Positions 15,186 to 26,319 of a stretch of 64,000 bases of DNA are shown one piece after another. The notes beneath the pieces are model-generated. The model made no database searches. It was given only the letters and a program-made list of their open reading frames with translations, and was not told the origin of the DNA. Every line of letters begins with the position of its first letter. The stretch's first letter is position 1. The stretch lies in sequence record OM386661.1; one strand, given 5' to 3'. A program made the translations under genes and the position numbers. The stretch is from Escherichia phage vB_EcoM_ESCO45.

Positions 15186-15759
15186 AAAAGGTCTAGTTAG
15201 AACCTTAGTGGATGTTATTGGTCACAGACTAGCTCGTGATAAAAATAATAGACCGAATGTAATTAGAGCTTACCCTTCTGATAACTCAAATGACAAAGGT
15301 TTAAAACCTGACCAGCCATTTATTACCGTATATTGTCAAGATGCTGCAACACCTTATGGTTGGGTTCTTGATAAGTTTGTTGAGGATGATGTAGTTTGCT
15401 ACAGAATTGCTTTTCAGATTCCTGTATTGATTACGGTAAATGGTAAAGGTGCTCACAGTATTATGCTTGAGCTTAAACAACGATTAGAGATGAGTTCAGT
15501 CAGAGATTTAATCCTTGAAGAAACAGGGGCTACAGTATTAGACACTGGAGCTATCCCGAATGACTATACTTATCTCAATACAGATTTCGAAAATTCTGCA
15601 CCTCTTGTTGTAACTCTTGTAAAAAACTCAGTCCTGAAAGATGAACGTGGGAGTATTATTGAACATGTCATTGTTGATGGTGAGTTGGTTTATGAAGAAG
15701 GACAAGAGCCACCAGAATATACTATCCATCTAGATGTAGACTCCAAAGGGGTAAAATAA
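15160..15759 (+). CDS. hypothetical tail completion protein
   Basis: Position immediately upstream of sheath gene. Confidence 0.35.
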   Translation: MQLETAELEKGLVRTLVDVIGHRLARDKNNRPNVIRAYPSDNSNDKGLKPDQPFITVYCQDAATPYGWVLDKFVEDDVVCYRIAFQIPVLITVNGKGAHSIMLELKQRLEMSSVRDLILEETGATVLDTGAIPNDYTYLNTDFENSAPLVVTLVKNSVLKDERGSIIEHVIVDGELVYEEGQEPPEYTIHLDVDSKGVK

Positions 15760-17112
15760 ATGTGGAATCCAATTGTTAATGTAGATATTACATTGAACAC
15801 CGCAGGAACTACAAGAGAAGGTTTTGGTTTGCCACTATTCTTAGCTTCAACAGATAACTTTGAAGAAAGAGTTCGTGGCTACACTTCCTTAACTGAAGTT
15901 GCTGAAGATTTCGATGAGAATACTGCTGCATATAAGGCTGCTAAACAACTTTGGAGTCAGACTCCTAAAGTGACTCAGCTTTATATTGGTAGACGTGCTA
16001 TGCAGTACACTGTATCAATTCATGATGAAGTTACTGAAAGTACAGACTACTCAATTACTGTAGCTGTTGGTGGTGGCATCTCTCAACCATTCCAGTATAC
16101 AGCACAAGATTCAGATACTGCTGATGTAGTTTTGCAACAGTTTAAAACACAGATTGAAGCTGACCCAACAATCAACGATAAGGTTTCTGTGAATGTAACT
16201 GGTAGTGGTGGTTCTGCCACAATGATTATTACTAAAGCTGGTGATAATGACTTTGTGAAAGTAACAACCACAGCACAGACTGTATACATTGCAAGTACAA
16301 CTGCCGATACAGCATCAACTGCTCTGGCAGCTATTGAAGCTTACTCTACCGACTGGTATTTCATTGCAGCAGAAGACAGAACTCAACAGTTTGTCTTAGC
16401 AATGGCTTCTGAGATTCAGGCTCGCAAGAAAATCTTCTTTACAGCTAACTCTGATGTAGCAGCACTGCAAGGGACAGAATTAGCCAGTGCAAATGATGTT
16501 CCAGCACAGCTTGCTAAGAATATGTACACTCGTACAGTTTGCTTGTGGCATCACGAAGCAGCAGAAGATTACCCAGAAATGGCATACATTGCTTATGGTG
16601 CTCCATATGATGCAGGTTCAATCGCTTGGGGTAATGCTCAGCTAACTGGTGTAGCAGCTTCTCTACAACCATCTAATCAGAGACCTCTGGCAAGTATTCA
16701 GAAGTCTGCTTTAGATGCACGTCACTGTAACTTTATTGACCTTGATGGTGGTGTTCCAGTGGTTCGTAGAGGGATTACTTCTGGTGGGGAATGGATTGAT
16801 ATCATCCGTGGTGTTGACTGGTTAGAATCAGACCTGAAAACTTCTCTGAGAGACTTGCTAATTAACCAGAAGGGTGGTAAGATTACTTATGATGATACTG
16901 GTATTACCCGTATTCGTCAAGTCATTGAAACCTCTCTGCAAAGAGCAGTCAACAGAAACTTCCTGTCATCTTACACAGTTAATGTTCCTAAAGCCTCTCA
17001 AGTTGCTTTAGCAGACAAGAAAGCACGTATCCTGAAAGATGTTACCTTCGCAGGTATCTTAGCAGGGGCTATCTTGGATGTTGACTTGAAAGGTACAGTG
17101 GCTTACGAATAA
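15760..17112 (+). CDS. tail sheath protein
   Basis: 450 aa; C-terminal region (GGEWIDIIRGVDWLESDL...FAGILAGAI) resembles the conserved sheath C-terminal domain; followed by tube and chaperone genes. Confidence 0.7.
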   Translation: MWNPIVNVDITLNTAGTTREGFGLPLFLASTDNFEERVRGYTSLTEVAEDFDENTAAYKAAKQLWSQTPKVTQLYIGRRAMQYTVSIHDEVTESTDYSITVAVGGGISQPFQYTAQDSDTADVVLQQFKTQIEADPTINDKVSVNVTGSGGSATMIITKAGDNDFVKVTTTAQTVYIASTTADTASTALAAIEAYSTDWYFIAAEDRTQQFVLAMASEIQARKKIFFTANSDVAALQGTELASANDVPAQLAKNMYTRTVCLWHHEAAEDYPEMAYIAYGAPYDAGSIAWGNAQLTGVAASLQPSNQRPLASIQKSALDARHCNFIDLDGGVPVVRRGITSGGEWIDIIRGVDWLESDLKTSLRDLLINQKGGKITYDDTGITRIRQVIETSLQRAVNRNFLSSYTVNVPKASQVALADKKARILKDVTFAGILAGAILDVDLKGTVAYE

Positions 17113-17127
17113 TAGAGGTAAATTGGA

Positions 17128-17574
17128 ATGGCTATGTATCAGCAATATTCCCCTAAAGACGTTGTATGTAGCTGGAATGGTATTGCCATTGAAGGCTTTG
17201 CCCCAGACTCATTCTTACGTCTACAGAGAACATCACCACTTGTGACACCAGTTGTTGGTGCAGGTGGTCAGGTTGCTCTGACAAGAAATGCAGACAAGAC
17301 AGGTACTATTGAGATTGAGTTAATGCAGACTTCTCTCTCTAACCAGATGCTTTCTGCAATTCAAGCTAAACAAGACAATATGGAACTTGAAGAAGAAATC
17401 TCTTCTAACTTCGTAATCTACGACCCATCAGGCTCTGTTCTGGCAACTGGTATTAATGCTTGGTTGCAGGAATTACCACAGATTGAACTTGGTCGTGACC
17501 AGAACTCTAAAACTTGGATTTTTGGTTGTGAGAAGCTAGACTACACTTCTACAATTCCAGCGTCAAGTGTTTAA
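17128..17574 (+). CDS. tail tube protein (putative)
   Basis: 148 aa immediately after sheath, before terminator and chaperone genes. Confidence 0.55.
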   Translation: MAMYQQYSPKDVVCSWNGIAIEGFAPDSFLRLQRTSPLVTPVVGAGGQVALTRNADKTGTIEIELMQTSLSNQMLSAIQAKQDNMELEEEISSNFVIYDPSGSVLATGINAWLQELPQIELGRDQNSKTWIFGCEKLDYTSTIPASSV

Positions 17575-17585
17575 TAAATCCTATA

Positions 17586-17621
17586 AGGGGGAGACTTTAA
17601 AAGGTCTTCCCCTTTTTTGTT
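17586..17621 (+). terminator. rho-independent terminator
   Basis: GGGGGAGAC-TTTAAAA-GGTCTTCCCC hairpin followed by TTTTTT. Confidence 0.6.
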
Positions 17622-17647
17622 TCTTTTAAAAGTATTAAGGAATCACA

Positions 17648-18046
17648 ATGAAAACAGAATCTAGAGTAATTAATGGTAAGAAAGTAAATATTGTTCTGCT
17701 TGGGGCAAGAGATGGTATTAAGATGTCTATGAAGTTGGGTAAAATTGTTGTTCCAACCTTTGCACAGATGCTATCAAGTCTGACTGACAAGGGTAAGAAG
17801 GAAGCTCCGACGGTTCCATTTAAAGAACTTGTTGAAGCTTGTTTTGACAGAATTGAAGAAATTAACCTTGAAGAGATGGCGACCCTGTTATTTCAAGGGG
17901 CAACTGTTGATGACTTCCCACTTAATATTGATACATACTTCCAAGCAAACTATGGTGAATTTATTGATTACTTAGCATTTGCGCTGGAGGCAAACTTCGG
18001 AAGTTTTTTCGAAGCAAGCATTTTCAAAAGCCTAACTTCTCAGTAA
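17648..18046 (+). CDS. tail assembly chaperone (gpG-like)
   Basis: Small ORF immediately upstream of tape measure; contains candidate slippery heptamer near 3' end. Confidence 0.5.
   Translation: MKTESRVINGKKVNIVLLGARDGIKMSMKLGKIVVPTFAQMLSSLTDKGKKEAPTVPFKELVEACFDRIEEINLEEMATLLFQGATVDDFPLNIDTYFQANYGEFIDYLAFALEANFGSFFEASIFKSLTSQ
18004..18010 (+). other. candidate -1 programmed frameshift site (T TTT TTC)
   Basis: X_XXY_YYZ heptamer in zero frame of 17648..18046; the -1 frame is open from about 17968 through 18288. Confidence 0.4.
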
Positions 18047-18048
18047 AC

Positions 18049-18287
18049 ATGGGTAACACTCTACAGACACCACTAACTGATGCTGCTGTAGAGGCAACCT
18101 ATGAAGAAGCAGACGAGATGAAATTTGTGCTTGCTATTTATGGTATGGAAGGGTGTAAAGAAACACTTGACCAACTCTTTGCTATGACATTCTCTGATTT
18201 ATTATCATTGAGACAATTTCTTGAGATTCAGAGGTCGTATAAAGAGGAAATTGCTTACAACGAACTTAGAAGAGCAGGAAAAATGTA

Positions 18288-18288
<1 letters not shown>
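18049..18288 (+). CDS. tail assembly chaperone extension (gpGT-like -1 frame ORF)
   Basis: In -1 frame relative to 17648..18046, ends at tape-measure start. Confidence 0.45.

Positions 18289-26319
<8,031 letters not shown>

What the first reader, a model, noticed from the sequence alone, without database searches (positions are those of the whole stretch)
17968..18288. Candidate -1 programmed frameshift in the tail assembly chaperone pair
The ORF 18049..18288 is in the -1 frame relative to 17648..18046 and that frame is open from about 17968. A canonical slippery heptamer T_TTT_TTC (18004-18010, zero-frame codons TTT TTC) lies about 40 nt before the stop of the upstream ORF. This matches the conserved G/GT-type frameshift upstream of tape measure genes in tailed phages, and would yield a fusion of roughly 210 aa.
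Basis: partly seen in the sequence, partly recalled or inferred. Interest (0 to 1): 0.5.

Follow-up and report, generated by a model that had tools for sequence, protein, structure and literature searches.

The report
Known tail-chaperone frameshift, Felix O1-like phage
This is the standard -1 ribosomal frameshift that tailed phages use to make a short and a long version of their tail assembly chaperone, here in a Felix O1-like phage; the sequence evidence is strong, but it is ordinary and already annotated in close relatives.

Summary
ORF1 (17648-18046) is a tail assembly chaperone (Pfam Phage_TAC_15). It carries an in-phase slippery heptamer T_TTT_TTC at 18004-18010. ORF2 (18049-18288) lies in the -1 frame, which is open from 17968. 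The pair sits between the sheath/tube genes and the tape measure gene of a Felixounavirus, a contractile-tailed phage.

A -1 shift gives a 213-aa, 24-kDa fusion. All 43 relatives read here keep the heptamer in the same phase, followed by an open -1 extension of 92-123 codons. These include relatives with only 28-31% chaperone identity (rV5-like phages, phiTE, an Alteromonas phage).

ORF2's ATG is not conserved: it reads ATA in one close relative and is missing in Erwinia, Yersinia, Vequintavirinae and Alteromonas phages. ORF2 also has no Shine-Dalgarno sequence. Nucleotide identity to distant genera peaks at the slip site. I found no conserved downstream RNA structure. A GGAGG 13 nt upstream may act as a stimulator.

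GenBank records of phages Mushroom and Moogle already annotate the joined CDS, and the Moogle and Michonne genome papers state the frameshift. The fusion protein has not been shown experimentally in this lineage. Verdict: real, interpretation supported, already known, low interest.

The parts
17648..18046 (+). ORF1: tail assembly chaperone, zero-frame product (G-like), 132 aa, 14.7 kDa
   Evidence: Pfam PF21822 Phage_TAC_15, E = 2.6e-19, 70.5 bits against a cutoff of 22, profile positions 1-124 of 127. PHROG 1613 'tail assembly chaperone', 5.6e-48. AAGGA Shine-Dalgarno sequence upstream of the ATG.
18004..18010 (+). Slippery heptamer T_TTT_TTC (zero-frame codons TTT 18005-18007 and TTC 18008-18010)
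   Evidence: Read directly. Present in the same phase in all 43 related loci; it reads TTTTTTT in the Alteromonas phage. U_UU.U_UU.C is one of the heptamers with more than 0.1% frameshifting in E. coli without a stimulator, and it is used by IS elements (PMC4066793).
17968..18046 (+). Overlap zone where both the zero frame and the -1 frame are open (79 nt)
   Evidence: In Yersinia phage P778 the -1 frame opens only 3 nt before the heptamer, and ORF1 stops 27 nt after it. Any shift must therefore occur in a window of about 40 nt that begins at the heptamer.
17648..18288 (+). Predicted frameshift fusion (GT-like): join(17648..18010, 18010..18288), 213 aa, 24.2 kDa, junction ...ANFGSFF|RSKHFQKPNFSVNMGN...
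   Evidence: The same joined CDS is annotated in Salmonella phage Mushroom and Citrobacter phage Moogle. The deposited sequence of phage CL1 has T7 at the slip site and encodes the same 213-aa architecture, identical from the junction onward, as one plain ORF.
18049..18288 (+). ORF2: the -1-frame extension (T-like module), 79 aa if started at its own ATG
   Evidence: PHROG 4963 'tail assembly chaperone', 2.8e-55; no Pfam hit. No Shine-Dalgarno sequence in the 18 nt before the ATG. The ATG reads ATA in L009 and is absent in Kolesnikvirus, Yersinia P778, Vequintavirinae and the Alteromonas phage.
18005..18034 (+). Island of nucleotide conservation covering the slip site and the 24 nt after it
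   Evidence: In 30-nt windows, identity to the Erwinia, Yersinia and Hafnia phages is 0.93, 0.83 and 0.93 here, against about 0.52 over the whole ORF1-ORF2 region. In the listed blastn rows, the Erwinia/Kolesnikvirus-type phages match the 721-nt query only at 17993-18033. Conserved peptides in both frames explain it (FFEASIFK and FFRSKHFQKP).
17986..17990 (+). GGAGG inside ORF1, 13 nt upstream of the heptamer: a possible Shine-Dalgarno-like upstream stimulator (inferred)
   Evidence: GGAGG occurs 16 times on the + strand of the 64-kb window. The same motif at the same spacing is found in Moogle, SUSP1-like phages and the rV5-like phage LL12. It is absent in the Erwinia, Hafnia, Yersinia and phiTE homologues.
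18288..20531 (+). Tape measure protein gene; its ATG overlaps the ORF2 stop (TAATG)
   Evidence: Pfam TMP_3, 3.9e-16; PHROG 4036, full length; sequence.
15760..17574 (+). Context: tail sheath gene (15760-17112) and tail tube gene (17128-17574)
   Evidence: PHROG 205 'tail sheath', 4.8e-122, and Pfam DUF3383. Tube: Pfam KPP10_Orf10 and PHROG 280.
17585..17614 (+). Terminator-like hairpin plus T-run between the tube gene and ORF1
   Evidence: 13-pair stem followed by TTTTGTTTCT. The listing for the region searched shows a 'terminator' feature in several relatives' records. It may lower expression of the chaperone and tape measure genes relative to sheath and tube (inference).

Best explanation
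This is a programmed -1 ribosomal frameshift in the tail assembly chaperone gene of a Felix O1-like myophage.

Most ribosomes translate ORF1 to its stop and make the 132-aa chaperone. A minority slip back one base on U_UUU_UUC, when tRNA-Phe occupies both the P and A sites (UUU UUC re-pairs as UUU UUU). They then continue in the -1 frame through ORF2 and make a 213-aa fusion that shares its first 121 residues with the short form.

By analogy with lambda G/GT and P2 E/E+E', both forms bind the tape measure protein through the shared N-terminal part. The C-terminal extension recruits the tube protein. The fixed low ratio of long to short form is set by the frameshift efficiency.

Shown here:
- the anatomy, the gene identities and the deep conservation of site, phase and frame continuity;
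- the dispensability of ORF2's own start codon.

Inferred:
- that the shift is ribosomal;
- its efficiency;
- the roles of the two products;
- a possible stimulation by the GGAGG 13 nt upstream.
For: Sequence anatomy.

Gene identity and order: ORF1 belongs to Pfam Phage_TAC_15, and the order is sheath-tube-ORF1-ORF2-tape measure.

Uniqueness: this is the only one of 43 in-phase heptamers in the window followed by a long -1 frame.

Conservation: the heptamer, its phase and an open -1 extension of 92-123 codons are conserved in 43 of 43 loci. These span Felixounavirus, Mooglevirus, Suspvirus, Kolesnikvirus, Hafnia and Yersinia phages, Vequintavirinae (LL12, phiTE) and Alteromonas phage PT11-V22.

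Frame continuity: indels between the slip site and the conserved ORF2 core come in multiples of three.

ORF2's own start:
- In Kolesnikvirus, phiTE and the Alteromonas phage, the first possible start codon in the -1 frame lies at codon 56-64 of the extension.
- Yersinia P778 has only a TTG.
- L009 has ATA in place of ATG.
- The window's ATG has no Shine-Dalgarno sequence.

Nucleotide conservation peaks at the slip site.

Prior annotation and literature:
- Joined CDS in Mushroom and Moogle.
- The frameshift is stated in the Moogle and Michonne genome papers (PMC4319497 and PMC4591319).
- U_UU.U_UU.C is a competent E. coli frameshift motif (PMC4066793).
- The general G/GT mechanism is described in PMC5009743.
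- ORF2-frame protein was detected by mass spectrometry in the relative Sf14 (PMC11821841).
Against: - In the papers I found, no experiment in this lineage shows the fusion protein or the trans-frame junction peptide.
- There is no conserved downstream hairpin or pseudoknot at the usual 5-9 nt spacing. The alignment fold gives -0.66 kcal/mol with no covariation. The only significant local hairpin starts 48 nt downstream and is not conserved.
- In Felixounavirus, ORF2 has an ATG 2 nt after ORF1's stop, so reinitiation is also possible there.
- In Sf14 virions, the ORF2 homologue was detected by mass spectrometry while the ORF1 homologue was not. That is not what a simple fusion-only model predicts.
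- Most GenBank records, including the Felix O1 RefSeq record, annotate two separate genes.
Confidence: 0.86

Rival explanations
1. There is no recoding. ORF2 is an independent small gene, translated from its own ATG at 18049 by termination-reinitiation. ORF1's stop is only 2 nt upstream, so ribosomes could restart there. On this reading the heptamer is incidental.
For: TAA-AC-ATG arrangement. Two separate CDS are annotated in most records, including the Felix O1 RefSeq record. Virion mass spectrometry of Sf14 detected gp42 (the ORF2 homologue) but not gp41 (the ORF1 homologue).
Against: No Shine-Dalgarno sequence precedes the ATG. The ATG reads ATA in the close relative L009. There is no start codon before codon 56-64 of the extension in Kolesnikvirus, phiTE and the Alteromonas phage, and only a TTG in Yersinia P778. 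Yet the heptamer, its phase and frame continuity are invariant. The -1-frame peptide upstream of the ATG (FFRSKHFQKP) is conserved. Independent initiation could still occur in addition to frameshifting in Felixounavirus.
Confidence: 0.05
2. The cause is transcriptional slippage. RNA polymerase adds one extra U while copying the T6 run. A fraction of mRNAs then encode the same 213-aa fusion by ordinary translation.
For: A one-base insertion in the run gives exactly the same protein, as the T7 sequence of phage CL1 illustrates. A weak terminator-like hairpin at 17984-18000 sits just upstream of the T-run. Hairpins upstream of slippery runs are known to promote polymerase slippage (PMC5009743).
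Against: By established knowledge, a run of six T is short for efficient slippage by bacterial RNA polymerase; productive cases usually need about 8-9 or a strong hairpin. The hairpin has only 6 pairs, two of them G-U, and its sequence is not conserved in the Erwinia, Hafnia and Yersinia phages. The homologous lambda case is described as ribosomal frameshifting. The site is a perfect in-phase X_XXY_YYZ heptamer in every lineage.
Confidence: 0.06
3. The arrangement is a chance or decaying one. ORF2 is not expressed, or the two ORFs are a broken single gene (a sequencing or mutational indel in the homopolymer).
For: Phage CL1's record has T7 and a single fused ORF. A homopolymer is a typical place for indel errors.
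Against: T6 with two ORFs is found in about 300 independent phage records and in all 43 other loci read here, CL1 excluded. ORF2's protein sequence is conserved across genera. ORF2 product was detected in Sf14. CL1 is the outlier, so it is more likely the error.
Confidence: 0.02

Closest known systems
Phage lambda G / GT tail assembly chaperones (Levin et al. 1993; Xu, Hendrix and Duda 2004, 2013, 2014; as summarised in PMC5009743)
   Same: - Two overlapping ORFs lie immediately upstream of the tape measure gene.
- A -1 shift on a heptamer near the end of the first ORF gives a short form and a C-terminally extended form with a shared N-terminus.
- No strong downstream RNA stimulator is evident.
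   Different: - Lambda is a siphovirus and uses G_GGA_AAG; this is a contractile-tailed phage using U_UUU_UUC.
- I did not test for sequence similarity to G or T; ORF1 belongs to Pfam Phage_TAC_15.
- Lambda G and GT are absent from virions, whereas the ORF2 homologue of relative Sf14 was reported in particle mass spectrometry.
- Efficiency and function are untested here.
Phage P2 E / E+E' (the myovirus counterpart; cited in PMC5009743 as having 2- to 3-fold higher efficiency than lambda)
   Same: Contractile-tail context with the gene order sheath, tube, chaperone pair, tape measure, and a -1 frameshift.
   Different: I did not test homology to P2 E. The statement that the P2 slip site is of the T-rich type rests on my own recollection and is not verified here.
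[quoted passage not shown]
   Same: The same gene family and the same heptamer at the same position. ORF1 is 73.5% identical to Moogle's and the region is 98% identical in DNA to Mushroom. Joined CDS are annotated and the frameshift is described in PMC4319497 and PMC4591319.
   Different: Nothing substantive: the window's locus is the Felixounavirus orthologue. Those annotations are also bioinformatic and have no experimental support.
E. coli dnaX and IS911/IS3 -1 frameshift signals
   Same: A heptamer combined with a possible internal Shine-Dalgarno-like stimulator upstream: GGAGG 13 nt before the site here. From memory, such upstream elements act at roughly 10-14 nt spacing. U_UU.U_UU.C is used by some IS elements.
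   Different: dnaX and the IS elements also have strong downstream hairpins or pseudoknots; none is conserved here. The GGAGG is absent in several relatives that keep the heptamer, so it cannot be essential to the family.

Membership tests
Tailed-phage tail assembly chaperone pair with conserved -1 frameshift (lambda G/GT type, Xu et al. 2004) | Position between the major tail/tube protein gene and the tape measure gene, on the same strand | tested here: met
   Sheath 15760-17112, tube 17128-17574, ORF1, ORF2, tape measure 18288-20531.
Tailed-phage tail assembly chaperone pair with conserved -1 frameshift (lambda G/GT type, Xu et al. 2004) | A second ORF overlaps the 3' end of the first in another frame and extends to about the tape measure start | tested here: met
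   The -1 frame is open over 17968-18288, with a 79-nt overlap. Its stop overlaps the tape measure ATG.
Tailed-phage tail assembly chaperone pair with conserved -1 frameshift (lambda G/GT type, Xu et al. 2004) | A slippery sequence in the correct phase inside the overlap | tested here: met
   T_TTT_TTC at 18004-18010. It is the only canonical heptamer in the overlap.
Tailed-phage tail assembly chaperone pair with conserved -1 frameshift (lambda G/GT type, Xu et al. 2004) | The arrangement is conserved in relatives despite sequence divergence, and the downstream ORF lacks a conserved start of its own | tested here: met
   43 of 43 loci, down to 28% identity. Start codon absent or not conserved.
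Tailed-phage tail assembly chaperone pair with conserved -1 frameshift (lambda G/GT type, Xu et al. 2004) | Both the short and the frameshifted long protein are made, at a fixed low ratio, and both are needed for tail assembly | not testable with these tools
   Only indirect evidence: the ORF2-frame product was detected in Sf14 particles (PMC11821841). I found no junction peptide or genetic data.
Tailed-phage tail assembly chaperone pair with conserved -1 frameshift (lambda G/GT type, Xu et al. 2004) | The chaperones are absent from the mature virion (as for lambda G/GT) | tested here: inconclusive
   Literature only. In Sf14, gp41 (ORF1 homologue) was not detected and gp42 (ORF2 homologue) was detected in a particle preparation. 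The result could reflect a trace contaminant or genuine retention.
Pfam PF21822 Phage_TAC_15 | Score above the curated gathering threshold over the full profile | tested here: met
   70.5 bits against a cutoff of 22; profile positions 1-124 of 127; E = 2.6e-19.
-1 PRF signals with a downstream structured stimulator (IS3/IS911/dnaX type) | A conserved hairpin or pseudoknot beginning about 5-9 nt after the heptamer | tested here: not met
   Only a weak 4-bp helix starts directly after the site. The consensus fold of 12 diverse relatives gives -0.66 kcal/mol with 0 compensatory pairs.

The most novel reading that the evidence does not exclude
The C-terminal, -1-frame module (ORF2) may not be a chaperone that is simply discarded. 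It could be retained in the finished virion, either as the fusion, as a processed fragment or as a separately initiated 9-kDa protein. The hint is the Sf14 particle mass spectrometry, which found the ORF2 homologue but not the ORF1 homologue. In addition, the frameshift may be driven by a structure-free context rather than by an RNA fold: an upstream GGAGG plus the invariant 24 nt after the site.
Probability: 0.12. Interest if true: 0.4.

Novelty: already known. Interest (0 to 1): 0.12.

Why it matters
The main value is annotation quality. Most of the roughly 300 Felix O1-like records, including the type-species RefSeq record, list two separate small genes instead of a short product and a frameshifted long product. 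At least one record, CL1, carries a fused ORF that probably reflects a homopolymer error. Felix O1-like phages are used for Salmonella and E. coli typing, biocontrol and therapy, so a correct structural gene map has practical use. Biologically, the locus adds nothing new to the well-established G/GT paradigm. It does show that this chaperone family keeps the same U_UUU_UUC site across at least two subfamilies and a marine phage.

Tried and rejected
- **Downstream stimulator.** I folded 18011-18110 and 17980-18070 and ran an alignment fold of 12 diverse relatives. No conserved structure appeared. The hairpin at 18058-18093 is too far from the site and is not conserved.
- **Solved structures.** A sequence search of ORF1 against PDB chains gave no hit at E <= 1.
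- **IMG/VR loci.** The search for related loci on IMG/VR returned only Ounavirinae relatives. The more distant homologues came from tblastn against GenBank phages.
- **Proteomic evidence of the fusion.** Literature searches found only the Sf14 virion table. It does not consider the frameshift, and its supplement has no peptide-level data. The one paper hit for 'Felixounavirus + frameshift + chaperone' (PMC6669636) concerns host LPS gene frameshift mutations and is irrelevant.
- **Other slip sites.** I looked for alternative sites in the overlap and found no other X_XXY_YYZ heptamer.
- **+1 frame.** It is closed: only 18036-18056 is open.
- **Not run.** I did not run structure prediction or the large protein database searches. 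The Pfam and PHROG assignments and the comparative data already settle the question.

Full report
**What the window is.** The region 15700-20600 is 95-99% identical to dozens of Escherichia and Salmonella phages of the genus Felixounavirus (Felix O1-like, contractile tail). A megablast found 297 phage records, 250 of them covering at least 80% of the query. Profile searches give this gene order:
- tail sheath, 15760-17112 (PHROG 205, Pfam DUF3383);
- tail tube, 17128-17574 (PHROG 280, Pfam KPP10_Orf10);
- ORF1, 17648-18046;
- ORF2, 18049-18288;
- tape measure protein, 18288-20531 (Pfam TMP_3, PHROG 4036).

ORF1 matches Pfam Phage_TAC_15 over the whole profile (70.5 bits against a cutoff of 22) and PHROG 1613 'tail assembly chaperone'. 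ORF2 matches only PHROG 4963, which is also labelled tail assembly chaperone.

**Checking the observation.**
- ORF2 is in the -1 frame relative to ORF1. That frame is open from 17968, because the last stop is TGA at 17965.
- TTTTTTC occupies 18004-18010 with zero-frame codons AGT TTT TTC, which is the X_XXY_YYZ phase.
- The heptamer ends 33 nt before ORF1's TAA.
- A -1 slip gives join(17648..18010, 18010..18288). The product is 213 aa and 24.2 kDa, with junction ...ANFGSFF/RSKHFQKPNFSVNMGN....
- The +1 frame is closed.

On chance: a crude gene set of the window contains 43 in-phase slippery heptamers at 19,017 codon positions (0.23%). About 0.06 would be expected within the 26 codon positions of the overlap. 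Only this one of the 43 is followed by a long -1 frame (92 codons; the next longest is 26). On its own this is suggestive but not decisive.

**Comparative evidence.** I read the homologous region in 43 other loci that keep the two-ORF arrangement; phage CL1, a 44th locus, is treated at the end. These came from GenBank phage records and IMG/VR contigs and cover:
- Felixounavirus;
- Mooglevirus (Moogle, Sf19, Sf14);
- Suspvirus (SUSP1);
- Kolesnikvirus (Erwinia phiEa21-4, Hafnia SPARTY);
- Hafnia phage SarahDanielle and Yersinia phage P778;
- three much more distant homologues found by tblastn at 28-31% ORF1 identity: the rV5-like phage LL12 and Pectobacterium phage phiTE (both Vequintavirinae), and Alteromonas phage PT11-V22.

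Every one has TTTTTTC at the same place in ORF1 and in the same phase; the Alteromonas phage has TTTTTTT. In every one a -1 frame opens shortly before the heptamer. The frame then runs 92-123 codons, to or close to the tape measure gene start where that gene is seen.

The position of the shift is tightly bounded. In Yersinia P778 the -1 frame opens only 3 nt before the heptamer, and ORF1 stops 27 nt after it. Length differences between the slip site and the conserved core of ORF2 are multiples of three.

I ran it and it failed to refute.

**Is ORF2 an independent gene?** In the window, ORF2's ATG lies 2 nt after ORF1's stop and has no Shine-Dalgarno sequence within 18 nt. The ATG is not conserved:
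- One near-identical IMG/VR genome (L009) has ATA.
- Kolesnikvirus has no ATG, GTG or TTG before codon 56 of the 94-codon extension.
- The Alteromonas phage has none before codon 61, and phiTE none before codon 64.
- Yersinia P778 has only a TTG.

By contrast, the -1-frame peptide that begins directly at the slip site (FFRSKHFQKP) is conserved within Ounavirinae. It is still recognisable in Vequintavirinae (FFHTRRFRKP).

The extension is therefore reached from ORF1 in most lineages. Independent reinitiation may occur in addition in Felixounavirus, but it cannot be the family's mechanism.

**Nucleotide conservation.** In the listed blastn rows, the Erwinia/Kolesnikvirus-type phages match the 721-nt query only at 17993-18033, at 92.7% identity. 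In 30-nt windows, identity to the Erwinia, Yersinia and Hafnia phages is 0.93, 0.83 and 0.93 at 18005-18034, against about 0.52 overall. Third codon positions of one frame are first or second positions of the other. Conservation of both peptides is therefore enough to fix every base, and no extra RNA element is required to explain the island.

**Stimulatory elements.**
- Only a 4-bp helix begins right after the site.
- The one significant hairpin (18058-18093, z = -2.2) starts 48 nt downstream.
- An alignment fold of 12 diverse relatives gives -0.66 kcal/mol with no compensatory changes.

This does not argue against frameshifting. U_UU.U_UU.C is among the heptamers that shift at more than 0.1% in E. 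coli without any stimulator, and IS elements use it (PMC4066793). The lambda G/GT event is itself low-level, with a short-to-long ratio of about 30:1 (PMC5009743).

One candidate stimulator did turn up. GGAGG at 17986-17990 lies 13 nt upstream of the heptamer. From memory, Shine-Dalgarno-like elements stimulate -1 shifts in dnaX and IS911 at about this distance. GGAGG occurs only 16 times on this strand of the window. It recurs at the same spacing in Moogle, SUSP1-like phages and the rV5-like LL12. It is missing in the Erwinia, Hafnia, Yersinia and phiTE homologues. At best it is a lineage-specific enhancer, and it is partly explained by the conserved Leu-Glu-Ala/Val codons.

**What is already known.** The GenBank records of Salmonella phage Mushroom and Citrobacter phage Moogle annotate a joined two-piece CDS spanning both ORFs, alongside the short product. 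[quoted passage not shown] 2004 (PMC4591319).

Most other records, including the Felix O1 RefSeq record and the closest match ESCO49, list two separate genes. The feature is therefore known, but it is annotated inconsistently and only on bioinformatic grounds.

**Experimental hints.** The only proteomic data I found are from the cryo-EM study of the Mooglevirus Sf14. In mass spectrometry of particles, gp42 was detected and gp41 was not (PMC11821841). The Sf14 record shows that gp41 is the ORF1 homologue and gp42 the ORF2 homologue, with the same heptamer.

This shows that the -1-frame sequence is translated. It does not show how, because the paper does not consider the frameshift and gives no peptide-level data. 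The result is mildly at odds with the lambda picture, in which neither product is in virions. I leave that as the small open point.

**Rivals.**
- *Independent initiation as the sole route* is contradicted by the start-codon data.
- *Transcriptional slippage* adding one U would give the identical protein, and sequence alone cannot exclude it. A weak terminator-like hairpin precedes the T-run. However, six T is short for bacterial RNA polymerase slippage, the hairpin is weak and not conserved, and the homologous systems are ribosomal.
- *A broken gene or sequencing artefact* is excluded by about 300 independent records.

**An outlier record.** Phage CL1's deposited sequence has T7 instead of T6 and so encodes the predicted fusion as a single plain ORF. 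This is most likely a homopolymer error. It incidentally illustrates the product.

**Verdict.** It is an orthologue of a frameshift that is already annotated and published, within a textbook class. Interest is low.

Noticed in passing
window 2364-6577 (tRNA-Phe at 5576-5651): A cluster of 18 phage-encoded tRNA genes. It includes tRNA-Phe(GAA), the tRNA that decodes both codons of the slippery heptamer. Whether the phage's own tRNA-Phe affects frameshift efficiency is unknown.
   Followed up: no
L045 (Escherichia phage CL1, OK040806.1) 701-1342; aligns to window 18004-18009: The deposited sequence has seven T instead of six at the slip site. ORF1 and ORF2 therefore form one 213-aa ORF, annotated as a single 'tape measure chaperone' and identical from the junction onward to the predicted frameshift fusion. 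This is probably a homopolymer sequencing error. If it is real, the phage would make only the long form.
   Followed up: partly
L009 (IMGVR_UViG_3300045988_004167), position equivalent to window 18049-18051: A near-identical Felixounavirus genome has ATA where ORF2's ATG start codon sits. This is a natural knockout of independent initiation.
   Followed up: partly
window 17986-17990: GGAGG inside ORF1, 13 nt upstream of the heptamer. The same motif at the same spacing occurs in the distant rV5-like phage LL12 and in Moogle and SUSP1-like phages, but not in the Erwinia, Hafnia, Yersinia or phiTE homologues. It is a possible Shine-Dalgarno-like upstream frameshift stimulator.
   Followed up: partly
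window 17585-17614: A strong terminator-like hairpin (13 pairs plus a T-run) between the tube gene and the chaperone gene. It may step down transcription of the chaperone, tape measure and baseplate genes relative to sheath and tube.
   Followed up: no
window 18058-18093: A perfect 8-bp inverted repeat, CTCTACAG...CTGTAGAG, inside ORF2. The 100-nt fold has z = -2.2. It lies 48 nt downstream of the slip site and is not supported by the alignment fold. Mooglevirus and Suspvirus have a different potential stem (CCCCG/CGGGG) at the same place by eye, which I did not test.
   Followed up: partly
Sf14 record L043 29825-30462; PMC11821841 Table 1: Mass spectrometry of Sf14 particles detected the ORF2 homologue (gp42) but not the ORF1 homologue (gp41). 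That paper does not consider the frameshift. The raw data (MassIVE MSV000096931) could be re-searched for the junction peptide.
   Followed up: partly
GenBank records hit: Several records look mislabelled. 'Staphylococcus phage SA1' (GU169904.1) holds this Felix O1-like region at 96.8% identity. 'Campylobacter phage A112b' and 'A142' hold rV5-like sequence. The VpaE1_ev records label this region 'head closure / tail completion / sheath', which suggests shifted annotations.
   Followed up: no
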